Of a stretch of 64,000 nt of DNA, positions 18,437 to 29,039 are shown in pieces. The stretch's first letter is position 1, and every line of letters starts with the position of its first letter. The translations under genes and the position numbers were made by a program. The notes under the pieces are model-generated. The model was not told where the DNA came from. It saw only the letters and a program-made list of their open reading frames with translations, and did no database searches. Location: IMG/VR virus record IMGVR_UViG_3300048833_000111, positions 1 through 64,000 of that record. One strand, given 5' to 3'. This DNA comes from a virus.

Positions 18437-18522
18437 AAAAGAATAAAGAATGGTTAGAAAGTATGTTGTTTATAAAATCCAAATTTATACGAAGTAACTT
18501 TCTATTTACTATTATTCTCTTT
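18437..18522 (-). ncRNA. Y-RNA-like element A (minimal)
   Basis: TAGTAA/CATTCT internal loop, paired stem, TACTTCG motif shared with six other copies. Confidence 0.7.
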
Positions 18523-19884: not shown

Positions 19885-19909
19885 ATAAAATAATTTAGGT
19901 TAATAATAG

Positions 19910-19984
19910 TTCCTCAACTAGGACTTGAACCTAGGACCTACCCCTTAAAAGAGGGTTGCTACCTGCCAACTGAGCTATTGAGGA
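19910..19984 (-). tRNA. tRNA-Lys(TTT)
   Basis: Loop CTTTTAA. Confidence 0.88.
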
Positions 19985-19990
19985 ATATAG

Positions 19991-20066
19991 TCTGTGTGGT
20001 TAGATTCGAACTAACGTGTTCTAACTCCCAAAGTTAGCGAGATAAACCAGACTCCTCTACACACAG
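19991..20066 (-). tRNA. tRNA-Pro(TGG)
   Basis: Loop TTTGGGA. Confidence 0.88.
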
Positions 20067-20441
20067 GTAATTTTTAATGTATTCTAAAATTGTATGCTCA
20101 ATCTCTACCTTATATTTACTATGCCAATACTGATGATGTGTAGGACACAATGGTATAAGATTTTCTGGAGAGTTATTAGTATTATCTTCATCTAAATGAT
20201 GTACTTCAACTATTTTACTCTCTTTACATACTACACATTCTTTTTTATGATAATGAAAACAAGTTGTTCTATAAGAAGATTCTTTCCAATTTGGATTGTT
20301 AATACCACTTCTAAAATAACTGTTTGCACAAGAATGTGAACAAGTAGTTTTTTCTCTAGGACTACCTAAACTTGTATTAAAAATTTGCTCACATATTGGA
20401 CAAACTTTTTCTATTGGGGGGTATGTATGTTTTCTTGCCAT
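20034..20441 (-). CDS. HNH endonuclease (start taken at MARKH)
   Basis: CVVC...VEVHHLDEDNTNNSPENLIPLCPTHH; N-terminal CPIC...CSHSC. Confidence 0.85.
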   Translation of the reverse strand: MARKHTYPPIEKVCPICEQIFNTSLGSPREKTTCSHSCANSYFRSGINNPNWKESSYRTTCFHYHKKECVVCKESKIVEVHHLDEDNTNNSPENLIPLCPTHHQYWHSKYKVEIEHTILEYIKNYLCVEESGLSR

Positions 20442-20445
20442 ATCA

Positions 20446-20477
20446 CAAAGATATGACTTTTGAACCAATTCCCCAAA
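20446..20477 (-). promoter_or_regulatory. Bacteroidota -33/-7 promoter for HNH gene
   Basis: TTTG-N20-TATCTTTG, 4 nt before ATG. Confidence 0.7.
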
Positions 20478-20489
20478 TGTAATAATAAT

Positions 20490-20628
20490 AAAAGGAAGAA
20501 TGCTAATTAAGTATAATTATCTATGCTCTAACCAGCTGAGCTAATATACCTACGGCATATATTGGATTCGAACCAATGACCTTAACATTAAAAGTGTTGC
20601 GAAGTAACTTAATTATTACTATCCTTTT
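20490..20628 (-). ncRNA. Y-RNA-like element B with circularly permuted tRNA-Lys(TTT)-like domain
   Basis: Order: Y stem, anticodon arm CTTTTAA, T arm, acceptor hairpin ATATGCC-GTA-GGTATAT, D arm, Y stem. Confidence 0.8.
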
Positions 20629-20636
20629 ATTTATTG

Positions 20637-20710
20637 TAGCGGACCTGGGACTTGAACCCAGAATTACAAACTTATGAGACTTGCGTGTTACCAATTACAT
20701 CCAATCCGCT
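20637..20710 (-). tRNA. tRNA-Met(CAT), initiator-like 5' end
   Basis: AGCGGAT acceptor, loop CTCATAA, weak anticodon stem. Confidence 0.75.
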
Positions 20711-21287: not shown

Positions 21288-21431
21288 AAAAGAGAGAAAT
21301 TAATGTAACTGTGTTTGTGTATACAAATTCTTAAGATTTGCGTGTCTACCAATTGCACCAAATAGTTTTGCAACTATTAAAGGATTCGAACCTTTATTTT
21401 ACGAAGTAAGTTATCATTTTACTACTCTTTT
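21288..21431 (-). ncRNA. Y-RNA-like element C with circularly permuted tRNA-Leu(TAA)-like domain
   Basis: Order: Y stem, T arm, acceptor hairpin AATAGTT-GCAA-AACTATT, D arm, anticodon arm CTTAAGA, Y stem. Confidence 0.8.
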
Positions 21432-21439
21432 ATTTTTTG

Positions 21440-21567
21440 TGGGGAAGGCTGGAATTGAACCAACAATTTAAATTTCACATATTTTAATTTTGCCTTACGA
21501 AGTAACTTATAATCTCAGTATCATTGCTGAACAATATGACCTAAGTATTTTTGTATTTTTCTTCCCC
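21440..21567 (-). ncRNA. Element D: tRNA-like acceptor stem and T arm enclosing the Y-like motif
   Basis: GGGGAAG/CTTCCCC-A acceptor, GTTGG-TTCAATT-CCAGC T arm, internal AAGTTACTTCGT. Confidence 0.65.
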
Positions 21568-21594
21568 ATTGTAAGTTTATAGTTCTTCAACTTG

Positions 21595-22203: not shown

Positions 22204-22276
22204 AAAGGAGAAATTGAGAAGAGTTTATTTTGTGCAAATTATATATTAGCGAAGTAACTCTTCTCTTACTACCTTT
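22204..22276 (-). ncRNA. Y-RNA-like element E (minimal)
   Basis: AAAGG-TAGTAA-GAGAAGAGT-TACTTCGC...ACTCTTCTC-AATTTCT-CCTTT. Confidence 0.72.
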
Positions 22277-22362: not shown

Positions 22363-22567
22363 AAAAGAGAGAATAAAATAATAAGGATATAGATGTTTTG
22401 ATTCCATATCTAGAAAGAATGTTCCTAAAATACCCTTTAGTATAGGTAGAATAAAGTTTCAATTAGTTTTTCCTTTATTCAACTGTTCTTACGTCATATT
22501 TAGTATGTTCAGGCATATGCCTGTAATATAAAAATTTACGAAGTAACTTATTACTAACTACTCTTTT
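22363..22567 (-). ncRNA. Y-RNA-like element F with large multi-hairpin insert
   Basis: Same terminal stem and TACTTCG motif; ~150-nt insert with several hairpins. Confidence 0.68.
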
Positions 22568-22781: not shown

Positions 22782-22905
22782 AAAAGAGGGAAATTTAACA
22801 AACTTGTGAGATTTCTCTCGGATGGATTTGAACCACCAACAGATTGTGTATGAAACAATTACTCTACCAATTGAGTTACGAAGTAAGTTTGCTATTACCA
22901 CCCTT
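22782..22905 (-). ncRNA. Y-RNA-like element G enclosing a tRNA(CAT)-like cloverleaf
   Basis: Y stem, D arm, anticodon ATTGT-TTCATAC-ACAAT, T arm GGTGG-TTCAAAT-CCATC, Y stem. Confidence 0.78.
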
Positions 22906-22918
22906 ATATTTTATTTTG

Positions 22919-22991
22919 CGGATTATAAGAGATTCGAACTCTTAGCACTACATAGACAGTGTAGCATGTTAACCATTGACACCAATAATCC
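22919..22991 (-). tRNA. tRNA-Asp(GTC)
   Basis: Loop CTGTCTA. Confidence 0.85.
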
Positions 22992-23490
22992 TTATTATTT
23001 CTAACATCTGTTCATGTGTCATAGAATTTTTTAAATGATTCATAGCAACACTAATAAACTGGATATTATCTTTGTGATAACCTTTAGAAGAATCTATTCT
23101 ATCTAAACTAATAGTATAAATAGGGTCATTCTTTTTATTATTATCAGATTCTGAAAGTTTTACTTTAGAATAAACACATATTCCTTTTTGTTTATCCCAA
23201 ACTTCTTTCATTTGTTCTAATGTTAAAGAACAATCTTGTTTTCTATAACAAGCTCTTCTTAAATGAGGTCTAAACAATGTAAATTCATCTCTTCTGTTTC
23301 CAGGATTAAGATGTTCTACATTTCTCTCTACACCATCTAAATTAGAAATATTAGCTATTCCTAAGCAAGTTCTAGAACAGTAATTTTTTCTATTTAACTT
23401 TAAGTTTCTTTTAATTTCAGAAACATCTTTATTAAATAAGGTGTTGCAACCATCACATTTTATTTCTTGTTGTTTTCTTATGTATTTCAT
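22969..23490 (-). CDS. HNH-like (His-Me finger) endonuclease (start taken at MKYIRK)
   Basis: CDGC...YCSRTC zinc finger; SLDRIDSSKGY..DNIQF....N motif. Confidence 0.75.
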   Translation of the reverse strand: MKYIRKQQEIKCDGCNTLFNKDVSEIKRNLKLNRKNYCSRTCLGIANISNLDGVERNVEHLNPGNRRDEFTLFRPHLRRACYRKQDCSLTLEQMKEVWDKQKGICVYSKVKLSESDNNKKNDPIYTISLDRIDSSKGYHKDNIQFISVAMNHLKNSMTHEQMLEIIRIIGVNG

Positions 23491-23494
23491 AATA

Positions 23495-23525
23495 CAAAGA
23501 TACAAATTAATTGTGGAATACACAA
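23495..23525 (-). promoter_or_regulatory. Bacteroidota -33/-7 promoter
   Basis: TTG-N20-TATCTTTG, 4 nt before ATG. Confidence 0.7.
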
Positions 23526-23543
23526 GAAATATTTTTGTGGAAG

Positions 23544-23907
23544 TGGAGATGTGCGGACTCGAACCGCAGTCTTTAATACTCCTATATATAATACTTTATA
23601 CAGCTTATTCTCCAACACTTATTTAAAGACTCTGTTGGGACAGTCTATGAAATCAAATCGCTAGTTAGCTTATGCAGCTATTGCAACCTGTCTTGTTCCC
23701 CAAGATAAATCTTGAGAAGGAGATACAGATTTTCTCTCTCCTTTGTGTACTACCATCATTGGAGTACTAAATGTGTAGTTTATATCAACTACTTCTTGTG
23801 CATCATTATCAATGTTTCCATTTATTCAATTCACCTTAGTTTTAACCAGTTATCTCTCTGGGCTGAATATTATATAAGTCTTACCAAATCAAATCCAGGT
23901 CATCCCC
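23544..23907 (-). ncRNA. ssrA: tmRNA
   Basis: 5' GGGGATGACCTGGATTTGA, 3' GACTGCGGTTCGAGTCCGCACATCTCCA with G3:U70, internal ORF ending VAIAA*. Confidence 0.9.
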
Positions 23908-24850: not shown

Positions 24851-26539
24851 TTATATTACTACTCTTTTCACTTTTTCTAAGTGATGGGCAGCATTGAATT
24901 CAGATGTAGCAATATCATCAAACATTGCATATCCGTATCCATAGTAATATCTTACCTTATCTCCTGCAATACAGTTAGTACCATATCCAGCTAAGTCAAC
25001 TGAATATACATAAGGATTGCCTGATTTCTCAACATACCCCATATAGCTCTTATAGCTATTGCCAATATTACATTCATTATCAGATAAGATAAATACTCTA
25101 GTATATTTATTACCAGAAGCATTTGCAGTATTCCAAGCTGATGCTAAACTAGTTCCTCCCATATTTGCACTACTTAAGTTTTTAGCTAAAGTAAATACAT
25201 CAACATTGGGATTATACTGCACATATTTAGCAGAAGAACCAAATACAATTATATCTGCATTGGTAGCTATTGCTATTGTAGCTGCAACAAGTGCTGCTTT
25301 ATGTGCGCATAATACACCAATCTTACCATTAGGTAGTCTAATAGGAGTATGCATAGAACCAGATTGGTCCAAGAATATACAGTTATTTCCTGGTAGCATT
25401 TCTGCTAAATTAGGAATAGCTTCAATATATCCTTTAGCTAATGCCTGTGATATTTGTCTAGAGTAAGGAGTATTAAACTCAGAGAGCATAATATCATTTG
25501 CCAAATCTAGTTGATATGGCATTATTTTTCCTTCTCTAATCAATCTTGGATTGGAAACTAATTCACACACCTTACTGACAGTATCTGGGTCTGGGTTATT
25601 GATAAGAATGTTTCTTAAATTTCTCAAACAAGCCAGTATACCCAGTTTGTTTGTATCAAGAAGTTCTTTCCAATTATCAGATTTTGCCTGCTTTAAGACT
25701 TGCTCTGCTTCATCTTTATCCAACTTACCTTCCTTAACAGCTTTTGCTACAATTTGTCCTGCTTCTCCTTGGTTAACTTCCCAAGTATTTGCTGACACAT
25801 TGTAACCTCTCATTATTGCATCTAAAGTATAGACATCTTTATCCTCATATTTAACTATAGCACCTGATTTTTCTCCAGATGGGTGTGTTAAATTGATTAC
25901 ATCTATAAGTTTAGATTTGTATTTCAATAATGAATAAGTGTCGATAGATTCCAAAGCATCTTTGAAACCTTTCTTCATAGCATTTGTAAGCTTTGTACCA
26001 CTTACATTTACTTCACTACTTGTTTCTCCAGTCCTGTGATTTACCACAGTAGTAGTTTTATATTCCCCATTAAGGGCAACAAAACCTGCAATAATTTCAG
26101 ACATATCATCAGGTCTGAATATTACTCCACCTTTTTCTTTTTTCTTATCCCATAGACCATAAAATCTCTTTCCAAACTCTTGTCCTGAAAGATGTGGGGC
26201 AATAAATACAGATGCTGCGTGAGAGATAGTTCTCATACCTTCTCCTAAGCATCTAGAATAAACTATACATTGACAAGTTAAGTACAGATTTTCTGTAGCA
26301 CATTCCCTAATTAGACTTTCTAGTTCTACTAGTGTCTGTTTATCAGTTCTGTAATACTGGTTCTGTAATTTTAATGTGTTAAGCATAGTTAACAATTTCA
26401 ACCATTTATCTTGTGTATGGGCAGGTAATCCCTGTCTATTTACAGTATCTGGTTTTGGAATAGCTCTTGAGGCTACTAAGTTTTCTTTAGGTTTCTTCTG
26501 ACCTATAACTCCTGCTAATTTTGAGTTTGTTTTTGACAT
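24851..26539 (-). CDS. Ro60/Rsr-like TROVE-domain RNA-binding protein with C-terminal vWA domain (ATG start MSKTNSK)
   Basis: VNRQGLPAH, TWE, WKELL..NKLG..ACLRNLRNI, MPYQ, MIDAS DQSGSM, GGT, ILSDNE, VDLAGYGT. Confidence 0.88.
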   Translation of the reverse strand: MSKTNSKLAGVIGQKKPKENLVASRAIPKPDTVNRQGLPAHTQDKWLKLLTMLNTLKLQNQYYRTDKQTLVELESLIRECATENLYLTCQCIVYSRCLGEGMRTISHAASVFIAPHLSGQEFGKRFYGLWDKKKEKGGVIFRPDDMSEIIAGFVALNGEYKTTTVVNHRTGETSSEVNVSGTKLTNAMKKGFKDALESIDTYSLLKYKSKLIDVINLTHPSGEKSGAIVKYEDKDVYTLDAIMRGYNVSANTWEVNQGEAGQIVAKAVKEGKLDKDEAEQVLKQAKSDNWKELLDTNKLGILACLRNLRNILINNPDPDTVSKVCELVSNPRLIREGKIMPYQLDLANDIMLSEFNTPYSRQISQALAKGYIEAIPNLAEMLPGNNCIFLDQSGSMHTPIRLPNGKIGVLCAHKAALVAATIAIATNADIIVFGSSAKYVQYNPNVDVFTLAKNLSSANMGGTSLASAWNTANASGNKYTRVFILSDNECNIGNSYKSYMGYVEKSGNPYVYSVDLAGYGTNCIAGDKVRYYYGYGYAMFDDIATSEFNAAHHLEKVKRVVI

Positions 26540-26567
26540 ATTCAGTTCAATTTTATATGTTGACAAT

Positions 26568-27032: not shown

Positions 27033-27910
27033 CCTAAACCTATTTTTAAAATTCTACTTACCATTTCTCTTTGCTCTTCATTATCTCCTGGTATCCTAAG
27101 TGTATTACCTCCTATGATATCATATCTAGAAGATAAATCTTCTATTAACCTCTTCTCAGGTAAGAAAGTACCTATACTTCTTTGTATACCTGATGCAGAA
27201 TAACCATTAAATAATGTTGTACTAAAGAACTCTCTGTGTGAGCAAGCTAAAATATTCTTTAAGTTTAATTTTTCACTGGACTTAGCTACATTACATATAA
27301 CATATCCCATTCCATTTCCAATTGCATAAGTATCAGAATCAAACATATCAATATTTACATTGATATTCATTGCCTGACACATAAGTATTGTTTTAAGTAT
27401 TTTTACAAAAGATTTTGTATAATCCCCTCCTACAAAAGTACCTACTTGAAAAGCTAAATTTAAAGTTAACTTCTTTGCTCCTGGTCTCCCCCTCTTGAAT
27501 ATCTTTTCAGAATTAGAGGCATAATGTGGCATAGAAAGATTACCCTCAAATCTATTGAGGGTAAATTCTCTTTTTGAAGACTTTGCTTTATATACCAATT
27601 CTAGAAAATCCTTATCAACAGACATATCTTTCATAGCTATATTAATAATTTTCTGCTTGTGAGCAGTCAATATATTTCTATCTCTAAAATATTCTCTATG
27701 ATTGGATAAGTAATATGATATATCTCCACCATGTTGGATATCTCTTTTTAAAGCAATTCCATCAGGGTTGTTAGCAGGAATATCATACCAAAATATATCT
27801 GATAAATTATCAAATCTAATTAGTTTACTTCCTGATTCTAAAGTAGTATAAAGCACCTTTGGCTTAGGAATAGAAGAATCAAACATATTAATAATATAAA
27901 TCTCTATCAC
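27029..27910 (-). CDS. Putative vWA-like partner of MoxR ATPase
   Basis: Directly downstream of MoxR; beta/alpha pattern but no clear DxSxS MIDAS. Confidence 0.45.
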   Translation of the reverse strand: MIEIYIINMFDSSIPKPKVLYTTLESGSKLIRFDNLSDIFWYDIPANNPDGIALKRDIQHGGDISYYLSNHREYFRDRNILTAHKQKIINIAMKDMSVDKDFLELVYKAKSSKREFTLNRFEGNLSMPHYASNSEKIFKRGRPGAKKLTLNLAFQVGTFVGGDYTKSFVKILKTILMCQAMNINVNIDMFDSDTYAIGNGMGYVICNVAKSSEKLNLKNILACSHREFFSTTLFNGYSASGIQRSIGTFLPEKRLIEDLSSRYDIIGGNTLRIPGDNEEQREMVSRILKIGLG

Positions 27911-29039
27911 TTGCAGCTACTAGAGGTCTATCACCTTTTTGCATCCTAGCTAAAGCCTTTGCAACTTGTTCGTCTCTAGATATCTGTTGTGGATTCCTAT
28001 ACTCAACTTGTGGTTCATTAGAAAAATTAATATTGTTATTAACCTTTCTAAATATATTAGACCTATCCTCTGTAGATAAATCCTGACATACCATATTAAG
28101 AATTCTTTTGCTGGTATAACCAGCATTGATTAAAATAGATATATCTTCTACATTTCTGGTAGATAGATAATTACCTATTTCTTCAAAAGCATCTCTCATA
28201 GCTTCAACCCAAGGATAATAGTTACCCATAAGTTGTTTCTCCAATTGAATATGATATCCAATATGGTGTCTACAAAATCTAAATCTATCCATTAAAGCCA
28301 TATCTTGGAAATCCCTACCTGAATAATCAGTAGAGCCTTTCCCCCAAGTATTTCCACACATAACTAAATAAAAATCCTTGTGCTTTTTAGCTGTTGGATT
28401 ATCATCTCTATGTGGAATAGATATAAAGTTAGAATTATCTGCAATACCATTAAAGAATAGTGCCATATCTCCTGACATAGCATCATATTCATCTACTAAG
28501 AATAGACCACCATTTTCATATGCATTCAAGAAAGAAGTCTGTAAGTATACCTCAGATTTAGGTTGTTTATAACCTAATAAATCATGTACACTAGAGTCTC
28601 TAGAACAAGAATATTTATAAAAAGGTATGTTCATTCTTTTAGCTATTTCAGCTACCATATAAGTTTTACCAGTTCCTGCTGGTCCAACTAACATAGTTTT
28701 CTTTTGTATTACAAGGGATTTTACAACATCTTCCATTTTAGGATGGTCCATATGTTGTATTTCAATTTCAGAGGTATTGGGGAGAACTATTGTAGTTCTA
28801 CCTTTTACTATCTCTTCCATTATTTTATCCCGCATATTTCTTGCAGCATATTTTGCTGCATCTTTATGCTCTTTCAATATATTTTGAAGCTCTAGTCTCC
28901 ATTCATCTGAAGATTTAGATACATCAACATCAAAAGCAAGAATACTATCTTTCAATTTATCTTGAAAGATAGTATCTATTTCCTTTGCCAATCTATCTAA
29001 ATCAAATTCAGGTACTGCCTGTGATTTGATTTCATCCAT
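27888..29039 (-). CDS. MoxR/CbbQ/CobS-like AAA+ ATPase
   Basis: GPAGTGKT, LFLVDEYD, GNT, QDMALMDRF, STR. Confidence 0.85.
   Translation of the reverse strand: MDEIKSQAVPEFDLDRLAKEIDTIFQDKLKDSILAFDVDVSKSSDEWRLELQNILKEHKDAAKYAARNMRDKIMEEIVKGRTTIVLPNTSEIEIQHMDHPKMEDVVKSLVIQKKTMLVGPAGTGKTYMVAEIAKRMNIPFYKYSCSRDSSVHDLLGYKQPKSEVYLQTSFLNAYENGGLFLVDEYDAMSGDMALFFNGIADNSNFISIPHRDDNPTAKKHKDFYLVMCGNTWGKGSTDYSGRDFQDMALMDRFRFCRHHIGYHIQLEKQLMGNYYPWVEAMRDAFEEIGNYLSTRNVEDISILINAGYTSKRILNMVCQDLSTEDRSNIFRKVNNNINFSNEPQVEYRNPQQISRDEQVAKALARMQKGDRPLVAASDRDLYY

What the first reader, a model, noticed from the sequence alone, without database searches (positions are those of the whole stretch)
20490..20628. Element B: tRNA-Lys(UUU) circularly permuted at the D/anticodon junction
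Inside the Y stem the order is anticodon arm AACA-CTTTTAA-TGTT, variable loop, T arm ATTGG-TTCGAAT-CCAAT, acceptor closed as hairpin ATATGCC-GTA-GGTATAT, then D arm GCTC-AGCTGGTTA-GAGC. It has no free acceptor end yet keeps an intact Lys anticodon loop, unlike YrlA where the Ro stem replaces the anticodon arm. tRNA-Lys(UUU) is the known target of PrrC and PARIS AriB anticodon nucleases. Inference: a non-chargeable decoy for anticodon nucleases or tRNA-modifying toxins.
Basis: partly seen in the sequence, partly recalled or inferred. Interest (0 to 1): 0.8.

Follow-up and report, generated by a model that had tools for sequence, protein, structure and literature searches.

The report
Phage Y RNA mimicking host tRNA-Lys
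Element B is a phage-encoded Y RNA (YrlA class, partner of the phage's Ro60/Rsr protein) whose core is a complete, circularly permuted copy of a Bacteroidota-type tRNA-Lys(UUU), anticodon arm included. The same hidden anticodon arm turns out to be the normal design of this RNA class in hundreds of bacteria and phages.

Summary
On the minus strand, 20630-20487 reads Y stem, anticodon arm CAACA-CUUUUAA-UGUUA, AGGUC, T arm, closed 7-bp acceptor hairpin, UA, D arm, Y stem. When un-permuted, ARAGORN calls it tRNA-Lys(UUU).

The element is not "unlike YrlA". An Rsr/Ro60 gene lies 4 kb upstream on the same strand. The same architecture sits beside rsr in at least 120 bacterial contigs and at least 120 viral contigs. 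The hairpin is the stem-loop published as the YrlA "V" arm.

New here: across 231 distinct elements that hairpin behaves as a true anticodon loop. U33 is present in 93% and R37 in 97%; U36 goes with A37 and G36 with G37.

Element B's D arm and anticodon arm match cellular Bacteroidota tRNA-Lys(UUU) almost exactly, while the phage's own tRNA-Lys has a different anticodon stem.

"Non-chargeable" is not safe: a 7-bp acceptor stem is what makes M. smegmatis YrlA an RNase P and CCA-addition substrate. The anticodon-nuclease decoy idea is plausible but untested.

The parts
20487..20631 (-). Element B as a whole: a YrlA-class Y RNA of about 144 nt, lying between tRNA-Met (20636-20710) and the HNH endonuclease ORF (20034-20468)
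   Evidence: orthologues aligned
20622..20631 (-). Outer Y stem S1, 5' strand (AAUAAAAGGA); pairs with 20487-20496
   Evidence: MFE fold; RNAalifold finds 8 pairs, 7 of them with double changes across 17 elements
20616..20621 (-). Conserved UAGUAA internal-loop motif. It is the AT-rich counterpart of GGUGAAG / GCCGUAGAA in bacterial relatives and the likely equivalent of the published Rsr-binding GNCGAA motif (inferred)
   Evidence: motif described in PMC4201824
20607..20615 (-). Inner Y stem S2, 5' strand (UAAUUAAGU); 9 perfect pairs with 20504-20512
20600..20607 (-). Family-invariant UUACUUCG motif
   Evidence: 211 copies on the rsr strand against 26 on the other strand in 1.44 Mb of rsr loci; invariant in A2
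20583..20599 (-). Anticodon arm CAACA-CUUUUAA-UGUUA (anticodon UUU). It matches Bacteroidota tRNA-Lys(UUU) at 16 of 17 positions
20578..20582 (-). Class-I variable loop AGGUC; C48 can pair with G15
   Evidence: read from the sequence
20561..20577 (-). T arm AUUGG-UUCGAAU-CCAAU
20544..20560 (-). Acceptor stem of 7 bp closed by a GUA loop (AUAUGCC-GUA-GGUAUAU)
   Evidence: all 7 pairs covary across 17 elements
20525..20541 (-). D arm GCUC-AGCUGGUUA-GAGC, preceded by U8 A9 (20543-20542)
20497..20503 (-). Conserved 3' internal-loop strand GCAUUCU (family consensus A-W-U-U-Y-C-Y)
24851..26566 (-). Phage Rsr/Ro60 orthologue (571 aa; TROVE plus Ro60 vWA domains), the presumed protein partner
   Evidence: best PDB match is Thermus phage phiLo Ro60, 9KOP/9L5Y
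19909..19984 (-). The phage's own canonical tRNA-Lys(UUU). Its anticodon stem ACCCU/GGGGU differs from both Element B and Bacteroidota tRNA-Lys
21288..21431 (-). Sibling element with the same Y stem and motifs. Order is T arm, acceptor hairpin, D arm, then anticodon arm CAAAU-CUUAAGA-AUUUG (UAA); it is permuted at the variable loop
22782..22905 (-). Sibling element: the Y stem encloses a normal-order cloverleaf (CAU), which ARAGORN and Rfam call tRNA-Met 22812-22886
18437..18522 (-). Small sibling element with the same 5' and 3' motifs and no tRNA-like module. Similar ones lie at 22204-22276 and 22363-22567

Best explanation
Element B is a YrlA-class Y RNA made from the phage's tRNA-array transcript.

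Its two-part terminal stem, with the conserved UAGUAA/AUUCU internal loop and the UUACUUCG motif, is the binding platform for the phage Rsr (Ro60) protein encoded 4 kb upstream. This step is inferred from family precedent.

The stem carries a full L-shaped tRNA mimic with all four arms, opened at the 26/27 junction and closed at the acceptor end. The mimic reproduces the D arm and anticodon arm of cellular Bacteroidota tRNA-Lys(UUU). Its acceptor and T stems drift freely through compensatory changes.

The most likely working mode is as follows. The Rsr-bound RNA presents a host-type tRNA-Lys anticodon stem-loop plus elbow to a host factor that reads tRNA-Lys: an anticodon nuclease, an anticodon-loop modification enzyme or LysRS. 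It sequesters or senses that factor, while translation is served by the phage's own tRNA-Lys(UUU), which has a divergent anticodon stem.

Shown: the anatomy, conservation with covariation, linkage to rsr, anticodon-loop signatures, and identity to Bacteroidota tRNA-Lys.
Inferred: Rsr binding, which factor is engaged, and a decoy or sentinel outcome.

My odds: member of the YrlA class about 0.9; the anticodon arm is functionally read by some partner about 0.55; specifically a decoy or sentinel for a tRNA-Lys-targeting nuclease about 0.25. The confidence figure given for this explanation refers to the middle claim.
For: 1. Anatomy: the un-permuted sequence is called tRNA-Lys(ttt), and Rfam YrlA matches the core.
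2. Partner: an Rsr gene lies on the same strand.
3. Family: the UUACUUCG motif is 8-fold enriched on the rsr strand in 79 phage loci. At least 7 sibling elements sit in this tRNA array.
4. Structure: the anticodon-plus-T alignment has 93.8% of cells paired, against 33-55% in the slid controls, and 4 of 5 anticodon-stem pairs carry double changes. S1, the T arm, the 7-bp acceptor and the D arm are recovered by RNAalifold.
5. Selection on the arm: the phage L003 orthologue (Rsr 69% identical) keeps the 22-nt anticodon arm plus variable loop unchanged, while its acceptor stem is wholly different.
6. Family-wide anticodon-loop signatures in 231 distinct elements: U33 in 214/231 and R37 in 223/231. 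U36 goes with A37 in 126/133 and G36 with G37 in 43/50 (Fisher 3e-28). There are about 57 class switches on a flank tree.
7. Linkage to rsr: 96/120 bacterial and 92/117 viral loci have an Rsr-like gene nearby, and 5/5 genomes tested have TROVE.
8. Host-type mimicry: the best matches among 401 Bacteroidota genomes are cellular tRNA-Lys(UUU), 88-90% over nt 8-63, with anticodon arm CAACA-CUUUUAA-UGUUG. Only 1 of 61 Bacillota genomes reaches E 1e-8. The phage's own tRNA-Lys stem is ACCCU/GGGGU.
9. The phage already has tRNAs for all 20 amino acids, so B is not needed for decoding.
10. Literature: tRNA-Lys(UUU), Thr(UGU) and Asn(GUU) are AriB targets, with U36-A-A-U39 near the cut site (10.1101/2025.02.04.636281). 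B has UAAU; the phage tRNA-Lys has UAAG.
Against: - There is no expression, binding or cleavage data.
- The host is not identified.
- The host-type anticodon stem is already AU-rich, so part of its retention in a 30% GC phage could be lack of mutational pressure rather than selection for mimicry.
- The sibling Leu(UAA) element's anticodon arm had no match above chance in 5 Bacteroidota genomes.
- Anticodon identity is not conserved across the family, and bacteria carry the same RNAs next to their own rsr. The general function of the arm therefore cannot be phage counter-defence.
- The AriB motif UAAU is not conserved among Lys-type relatives; for example, L006 has UAAC.
- The Rfam YrlA score is below threshold (31 against 69 bits).
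Confidence: 0.55

Rival explanations
1. Two-piece, CCA-tailed tRNA-like RNA. RNase P opens the 7-bp acceptor hairpin at G1, and the 3' end is trimmed and receives CCA, as in M. smegmatis YrlA. With an intact Lys anticodon arm, the nicked RNA could then be recognised or even charged by LysRS. Element B would then be a chargeable or CCA-protected Y RNA rather than a closed decoy.
For: - The acceptor stem is exactly 7 bp and abuts the T stem in all 17 aligned elements.
- Two relatives with long acceptor loops encode N-CCA directly after the 3' acceptor strand (L020 and L039).
Against: - The loop in B is only GUA, with A at position -1 and G at the discriminator position. Bacteroidota tRNA-Lys genes have A73, so a LysRS identity element may be missing.
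- CCA is not conserved in the loops of relatives.
- The phage encodes no CCA-adding enzyme, RtcB or RNA ligase, although host enzymes could do the job.
Confidence: 0.2
2. Evolutionary relic. The anticodon arm is left over from the tRNA, or tRNA dimer, from which the Y RNA arose. Only the elbow (T and D loops) and the Rsr site matter, as proposed for YrlA in general, and the Lys identity has no function.
For: - The dimeric-tRNA origin model comes from the literature (10.1101/312249).
- The element lies in a tRNA array.
- Anticodon identity varies freely among relatives.
- The stem-loop was described as "less conserved" (PMC4201824).
- The C27.A43 mismatch in B looks like decay.
Against: - A relic should lose the 7-nt loop, U33 and R37. 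These are kept in 93-97% of 231 distinct elements.
- Position 37 tracks position 36 as it does in working tRNAs, across many independent switches.
- The loop-closing pair is Watson-Crick in 103/109 viral and 119/122 bacterial elements, using four pair types.
- The 22-nt arm is unchanged between the window and L003, although the acceptor stem was replaced.
Confidence: 0.2
3. A genuine circularly permuted tRNA gene of the Cyanidioschyzon type. The Y stem would be excised and the ends ligated to give a circular intermediate, and the acceptor would then be opened to yield a normal tRNA-Lys.
For: The gene order resembles permuted pre-tRNAs. The possibility was raised for YrlA in 10.1101/312249.
Against: - No bulge-helix-bulge motif is visible at the junction.
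- The Y stem carries family-conserved motifs typical of a protein-binding site.
- Splicing endonucleases are not known in bacteria, and there is no ligase in the phage.
- The phage already has a tRNA-Lys(UUU).
- C27.A43 and G73 are poor features for a working tRNA-Lys.
Confidence: 0.03
4. A chance resemblance or dead tRNA fragments between genes.
For: ARAGORN and Rfam tRNA do not call it in its native order.
Against: There are orthologues with compensatory changes, hundreds of relatives linked to rsr, and a clear strand bias of the motifs.
Confidence: 0.01

Closest known systems
YrlA (Y RNA-like A), the bacterial and phage Ro60/Rsr-associated Y RNA with a tRNA-like domain (Chen et al. 2014, PMC4201824; structure in 10.1101/312249; Rfam RF02553)
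   Same: - It is encoded near rsr and on the same strand.
- The 5' and 3' ends form a stem with a conserved 5' motif.
- The order of parts is stem-loop, T arm, closed acceptor hairpin, UA, D arm.
- All tRNA tertiary-interaction nucleotides are kept.
- The M. smegmatis YrlA sequence ACUUC..GGAAUGGUC lies at the same place as UUACUUCG..CGAGAGGUC in this family.
- YrlA-like RNAs were already reported in 22 phages.
   Different: - The published description calls the 5' stem-loop a poorly conserved variable ("V") arm and states that YrlA lacks an anticodon loop. Here it is a 5-bp, 7-nt anticodon stem-loop followed by a 5-nt class-I variable loop.
- In Element B it copies Bacteroidota tRNA-Lys(UUU).
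- The linker from the D stem to the Y stem is 12 nt, so the Y stem cannot simply stand in for the anticodon stem as it does in the Salmonella crystal structure.
- The upstream motif is UAGUAA rather than GNCGAA.
- The element sits inside a 24-tRNA array with at least 6 siblings, in three different permutations.
- The Rfam model scores only 31 bits.
Thermus phage phiLo Ro60 with Yrl1/Yrl2 (PMC12135203)
   Same: - It is a phage-encoded Ro60 with phage-encoded Y-like RNAs.
- It is the best solved-structure match of the window's Rsr.
- A complex with host PNPase was shown there.
   Different: Yrl1 and Yrl2 are described as stem-bulge-stem RNAs with a CGAA motif. No tRNA-like module or anticodon arm is reported for them.
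Circularly permuted tRNA genes of Cyanidioschyzon merolae and some archaea (cited in 10.1101/312249)
   Same: - The 3' part of the tRNA is encoded before the 5' part.
- The acceptor ends are joined by a loop.
- The termini pair into a stem.
   Different: Those are processed, through a bulge-helix-bulge motif and a circular intermediate, into working tRNAs. No such motif or enzyme set is evident here, and the stem carries Y-RNA motifs.
Phage tRNAs that escape anticodon nucleases (T5 tRNA-Lys/Thr/Asn against PARIS AriB; PMC11464382, 10.1101/2025.02.04.636281)
   Same: - The setting is a phage tRNA array.
- The phage's own tRNA-Lys(UUU) has an anticodon stem that differs from the cellular type, including position 39.
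   Different: Those are working replacement tRNAs. Element B is the opposite: a non-canonical RNA that keeps the cellular-type anticodon arm. No tRNA-mimic decoy against anticodon nucleases came up in the papers I searched.

Membership tests
YrlA-class Y RNA | Encoded near an Ro60/Rsr (TROVE) gene, on the same strand | tested here: met
   The Rsr ORF is at 24851-26566 (-) and Element B at 20631-20487 (-), 4.2 kb downstream. Among relatives, 96/120 bacterial and 92/117 viral loci have an Rsr-like gene nearby.
YrlA-class Y RNA | tRNA-like module in the order T arm, closed acceptor-like hairpin, UA, D arm, with conserved T-loop and D-loop nucleotides | tested here: met
   Rfam alignment to model positions 23-86; RNAalifold with covariation.
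YrlA-class Y RNA | 5'/3' terminal stem with the Rsr-binding motif GNCGAAN0-1G near the 5' end | tested here: inconclusive
   The terminal stem is present and covaries. The motif here is UAGUAA. Bacterial relatives have GGUGAAG or GCCGUAGAA at the same place. The equivalence is inferred, not shown.
YrlA-class Y RNA | Reaches the Rfam RF02553 gathering score (69 bits) | tested here: not met
   It scores 31 bits. The model also missed all four rsr-genome bacterial elements tested (L256, L266, L274, L280), so the model is narrow rather than the element foreign.
YrlA-class Y RNA | Physically bound by Rsr; modified by TruB/DusA | not testable with these tools
   This needs immunoprecipitation and modification mapping.
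Canonical tRNA-Lys | Contiguous cloverleaf with free 5' and 3' acceptor ends | tested here: not met
   ARAGORN finds none in the native order. Rfam tRNA gives 25.1 bits, below its 29-bit threshold, with a broken acceptor.
Permuted tRNA gene (processed to a mature tRNA) | Bulge-helix-bulge at the junction, and a splicing endonuclease plus ligase | tested here: not met
   No BHB is visible in the fold. The phage has no RtcB or RNA ligase. Host enzymes were not examined.
Anticodon-nuclease decoy (no defined family) | Carries the recognition elements of the nuclease's cellular target and competes for it | tested here: inconclusive
   The D arm and anticodon arm equal Bacteroidota tRNA-Lys(UUU), and U36AAU39 is present. 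Competition and cleavage were not testable.

The most novel reading that the evidence does not exclude
The "variable arm" of YrlA-class Y RNAs is really an anticodon arm, so these RNAs are complete tRNA mimics that display a chosen anticodon on an Ro60 scaffold. In this phage, Element B displays the host's tRNA-Lys(UUU) anticodon arm as bait. It would act as a decoy, or as a cleavage-sensing sentinel coupled to Rsr, for a tRNA-Lys-targeting defence nuclease, while a stem-diverged phage tRNA-Lys keeps translation going. That would be a bait-plus-replacement pair.
Probability: 0.22. Interest if true: 0.85.

Novelty: new variant of a known kind. Interest (0 to 1): 0.62.

Why it matters
The effector of the tRNA-like domain of bacterial Y RNAs has been unknown since 2014. 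The published expectation is a factor that reads the tRNA elbow.

The data here show that the domain normally includes a bona fide anticodon stem-loop: U33, R37 and the 36/37 rule hold in 231 elements from bacteria and phages. In one phage it copies the cellular tRNA-Lys arm. Together these points direct attention to anticodon-reading partners: nucleases, position-37 or position-34 modification enzymes, synthetases, or the decoding site.

That gives concrete, testable candidates. If the decoy or sentinel reading holds, it would add a new kind of phage counter-measure to the tRNA-centred arms race. It would also link Ro60/Y RNA biology to tRNA damage, a link already hinted at by the rsr-yrlA-rtcBA operon of Salmonella (PMC7790460).

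Tried and rejected
- Rfam at gathering threshold finds nothing at Element B. Only a sub-threshold YrlA hit and a sub-threshold tRNA hit appear.
- Nucleotide search of the phage collection found only generic tRNA and HNH matches and no close relative.
- A strict viral pattern for the Lys-type arm returned only the two loci already in hand. Looser patterns were needed.
- A single consensus structure could not hold the anticodon stem in the full-length alignment, because its 5' strand is UUCGN in most relatives but a separate CAACA in B. I therefore counted pairs on a sub-alignment anchored at the T arm.
- Phage-encoded RNA repair or CCA enzymes (RtcB, RNA ligase, PolyA_pol/CCA) were sought and not found.
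- The host-mimicry test of the sibling Leu(UAA) arm in 5 Bacteroidota genomes gave only chance-level matches.
- Two reviews that might discuss the V arm (PMC6047535, PMC10870794) are not held. I cannot exclude that the anticodon-like nature of the V arm is noted there.
- A first literature search with loose terms was useless.
- Rejected readings: pseudo-tRNA debris, and a permuted tRNA gene processed to a normal tRNA. The reasons are given under the rival explanations.

Full report
**Setting**

The window is the first 64 kb of a 96,217-bp IMG/VR phage record with direct terminal repeats. It is about 30% G+C. On the minus strand it carries, in transcription order:
- an ORF of 571 aa with TROVE and Ro60-vWA domains at 24851-26566. 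Its best solved relatives are the Thermus phage phiLo Ro60 and Xenopus Ro60;
- a tmRNA at 23541-23907;
- 24 ARAGORN tRNAs from 22991 down to 17808, covering all 20 amino acids.

Element B lies in one gap of this array, between tRNA-Met (20636-20710) and an HNH endonuclease ORF (20034-20468).

**Observation**

Read on the minus strand, the element runs:
- S1 5' strand AAUAAAAGGA (20631-20622)
- UAGUAA
- S2 5' strand UAAUUAAGU
- UUACUUCG
- CAACA-CUUUUAA-UGUUA (20599-20583)
- AGGUC
- AUUGG-UUCGAAU-CCAAU
- AUAUGCC-GUA-GGUAUAU
- UA
- GCUC-AGCUGGUUA-GAGC
- a 12-nt linker
- S2 3' strand ACUUAAUUA
- GCAUUCU
- S1 3' strand UCCUUUUAUU (20496-20487)

The minimum-energy fold recovers S1, S2, the T arm, the acceptor hairpin and the D arm, with z = -2.5. 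ARAGORN finds no tRNA in the native order. Once the two halves are swapped it draws a complete tRNA-Lys(ttt) cloverleaf. Rfam's YrlA model aligns to the T-acceptor-D core at 31 bits, with a gathering score of 69. All nucleotides needed for the tRNA tertiary fold are present, read directly from the sequence. The one refinement is that the anticodon stem is best counted as five positions with a C27.A43 mismatch, which leaves the canonical five-nucleotide variable loop AGGUC.

**The element belongs to a family**

The gaps of the same tRNA array hold at least six more elements. They share the 5' signature AAAGRG-UAGUAA-(stem)-UUACUUCG and the 3' signature (stem)-AUUUCUCY-CUUUU. Their inserts differ:
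- a T-acceptor-D-anticodon(UAA) module permuted at the variable loop (21431-21288);
- a normal-order cloverleaf that the tRNA finders call tRNA-Met (22886-22812);
- several with no tRNA-like module.

**Relatives in other phages**

Using the Rsr protein I fetched 78 viral loci whose Rsr is 28-74% identical. UUACUUCG occurs 211 times on the rsr strand and 26 times on the other strand in 1.44 Mb. After the motif, many elements show the same order as Element B. Seventeen full-length relatives align. RNAalifold recovers S1 (8 pairs), the T arm, a 7-bp acceptor hairpin in which every pair covaries, and an invariant D arm.

I also made a sub-alignment of the anticodon hairpin plus T arm from 13 elements. 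It has 93.8% of cells paired, against 33-55% when the partners are slid. Four of the five anticodon-stem pairs change on both sides.

The closest orthologue is L003, whose Rsr is 69% identical. It keeps the 22-nt CAACACUUUUAAUGUUAAGGUC unchanged, while its acceptor stem is entirely different and its T stem carries a compensatory change. L006 has a different but fully paired stem, UUUUG-CUUUUAA-CAAAA.

**How this relates to published YrlA**

Chen et al. 2014 (PMC4201824) described YrlA as a terminal stem with a GNCGAAN0-1G motif, a "less-conserved" stem-loop V, a T arm, an acceptor-like hairpin and a D arm. They equated V with the tRNA variable arm and the terminal stem with the anticodon stem. 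They also reported such RNAs in 22 phages. The Salmonella structure paper states that YrlA "lacks the anticodon loop" and calls YrlAs circularly permuted tRNAs with closed acceptor stems (10.1101/312249).

A primer sequence for M. smegmatis YrlA (CACUUCUAAUGGAAUGGUCGC) places ACUUC..GGAAUGGUC exactly where this family has UUACUUCG..CGAGAGGUC.

I tested how general the arrangement is. Of these loci, 92/117 viral and 96/120 bacterial ones also encode an Rsr-like protein, and 5/5 genomes tested have TROVE. Rfam's YrlA model misses these bacterial elements too, so its low score on Element B reflects a narrow model.

**The hairpin is an anticodon loop, not a variable arm**

The nine free positions of the pattern give an unbiased sample of 231 distinct elements.
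- The loop-closing pair is Watson-Crick in 103/109 viral and 119/122 bacterial cases, using four pair types.
- Within the 7-nt loop, position 33 is U in 214/231. Position 37 is a purine in 223/231. Position 38 is A or C in 214/231. Position 32 is a pyrimidine in 193/231.
- The three middle positions are the most variable.
- Position 37 follows position 36 as in working tRNAs: U36 goes with A37 in 126/133 and G36 with G37 in 43/50 (Fisher 3e-28).
- On a tree of the flanking sequence these classes switch about 57 times, so the rule is not the legacy of one clade.

Because the flanking stem was fixed by the pattern, these loops evolved in place rather than being imported with whole tRNA arms.

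Linker lengths point the same way. Five nucleotides separate the hairpin from the T stem, as in a class-I variable loop, where a variable arm would leave one or two. Eight to twelve nucleotides separate the D stem from the Y stem, where a true anticodon stem would leave one. I therefore read the hairpin as the structural equivalent of the anticodon arm, with the Y stem leaving the molecule at the 26/27 junction. I found no statement of this in the papers held. Two reviews were not available.

**What is special about Element B**

In most relatives the 5' strand of the anticodon stem is the UUCG of the invariant motif, paired with CGAG. In Element B and L003 a separate arm has been inserted after the motif.

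I compared the un-permuted sequence with 401 Bacteroidota genomes. The best matches are cellular tRNA-Lys(UUU) genes, 88-90% identical over nucleotides 8-63. Their D arm, nucleotide 26 and anticodon arm read UAGCUCAGCUGGUAGAGCA-CAACA-CUUUUAA-UGUUG, or UAACA..UGUUA. That is identical to Element B except for one extra D-loop U and G43A. The acceptor and T stems differ. In 61 Bacillota genomes only one match reached E 1e-8, at 80% identity.

The phage's own tRNA-Lys(UUU) (19984-19909) has the stem ACCCU/GGGGU and shares only the loop. The phage thus carries a working tRNA-Lys whose anticodon stem differs from the cellular type, alongside a Y RNA that keeps the cellular type.

An earlier unchecked note calls the phage crAss-like and Bacteroidota-infecting. 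The tRNA match agrees with that, but the host remains unproven.

**Mechanism**

What is shown is the anatomy, selection on the anticodon arm, linkage to rsr, and identity to a cellular tRNA-Lys arm. What is inferred is as follows.

By precedent (PMC4201824, PMC12135203), the stem binds Rsr and the variable module engages a second factor. Since the module is a whole tRNA-Lys with a cellular-type anticodon arm and D arm, the factor is most likely one that reads tRNA-Lys at the anticodon and elbow. Candidates are an anticodon nuclease, a position-34 or position-37 modification enzyme, or LysRS.

The decoy idea gains some support:
- from the bait-plus-replacement arrangement;
- from the fact that AriB's three targets, Lys UUU, Thr UGU and Asn GUU (10.1101/2025.02.04.636281), are among the commonest anticodons in the family;
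- from B having the U36-A-A-U39 of AriB substrates, while the phage tRNA-Lys has G39.

It is weakened by several points:
- anticodons in the family are varied;
- bacteria use the same RNAs;
- UAAU is not conserved among Lys-type relatives;
- the Leu sibling shows no cellular match;
- an AU-rich stem would survive in an AT-rich genome without selection.

I put the decoy or sentinel reading at about 0.25 and "the arm is read by some partner" at about 0.55.

**The "non-chargeable" claim**

The acceptor stem is 7 bp in Element B and in all aligned relatives. Chen et al. showed that M. smegmatis YrlA, the one with a 7-bp stem, is cut by RNase P and acquires CCA in vivo. They attributed the lack of cutting in Salmonella to its 6-bp stem. 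Two relatives even encode N-CCA right after the 3' acceptor strand.

Against processing in B are the 3-nt loop, G rather than A at the discriminator position, and the absence of a conserved CCA. The phage has no CCA enzyme, RtcB or RNA ligase, but host enzymes would suffice. This rival stays open at about 0.2.

**Verdict**

Element B is a new phage member of the known YrlA class. It is a variant worth attention because it carries a complete cellular-type tRNA-Lys anticodon arm. The comparative work also suggests that the "V arm" of the whole class is an anticodon arm.

Noticed in passing
window 21440-21570 (-): An odd tRNA-like element. GGGGAAG and CUUCCCC form a 7-bp acceptor stem next to a T arm (GUUGG-UUCAAUU-CCAGC), but about 105 nt lie between them, including a UUACUUCG motif. 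The ending '...CCAAC CUUCCCCACA' recurs in relatives L009, L011, L062, L065 and L081. No tRNA finder calls it.
   Followed up: partly
window 22812-22886 (-): The ARAGORN/Rfam 'tRNA-Met' (49.6 bits) is nested inside a Y-RNA stem (22905-22782). Its 5' acceptor strand is the family motif UUACUUCG and its acceptor pairing is poor. It is probably a Y RNA rather than a working tRNA, so the phage likely has two tRNA-Met/Ile(CAU) genes, not three.
   Followed up: partly
window 23541-23907 (-): A phage-encoded tmRNA (Rfam 60.6 bits) sits between the Rsr gene and the tRNA array. Rsr, tmRNA, Y RNAs and tRNAs thus form one co-oriented RNA-centred block.
   Followed up: no
window 20034-20468 (-) and 22969-23523 (-): An HNH endonuclease ORF (Pfam HNH_2) is inserted in the tRNA array directly after Element B. 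A second unannotated 184-aa ORF lies between tmRNA and tRNA-Asp.
   Followed up: no
window 27888-29039 (-): A MoxR-like AAA_5 ATPase gene lies just upstream of two unknown ORFs and the vWA-containing Rsr. MoxR ATPases usually work with vWA proteins, so a functional pairing with Rsr is possible.
   Followed up: no
loci L084, L085, L090, L093, L094 and others (metagenome): A distinct, highly repeated subfamily has the 5' motif GGUCAAUCAAAAC-UUACUUCG, followed by UACA-CUUUUAA-UGUCC, a T arm and CUGCUUCAC. No acceptor hairpin or D arm follows, and the unit occurs in tandem with a second UUACUUC unit. It is another architecture carrying a Lys-type loop.
   Followed up: no
loci L260, L267 (genome contigs): The same YrlA-type pattern occurs in two archaeal MAG contigs (DHVE2 group and Methanophagales). 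This may reflect archaeal Y RNAs, viruses of archaea, or binning contamination.
   Followed up: no
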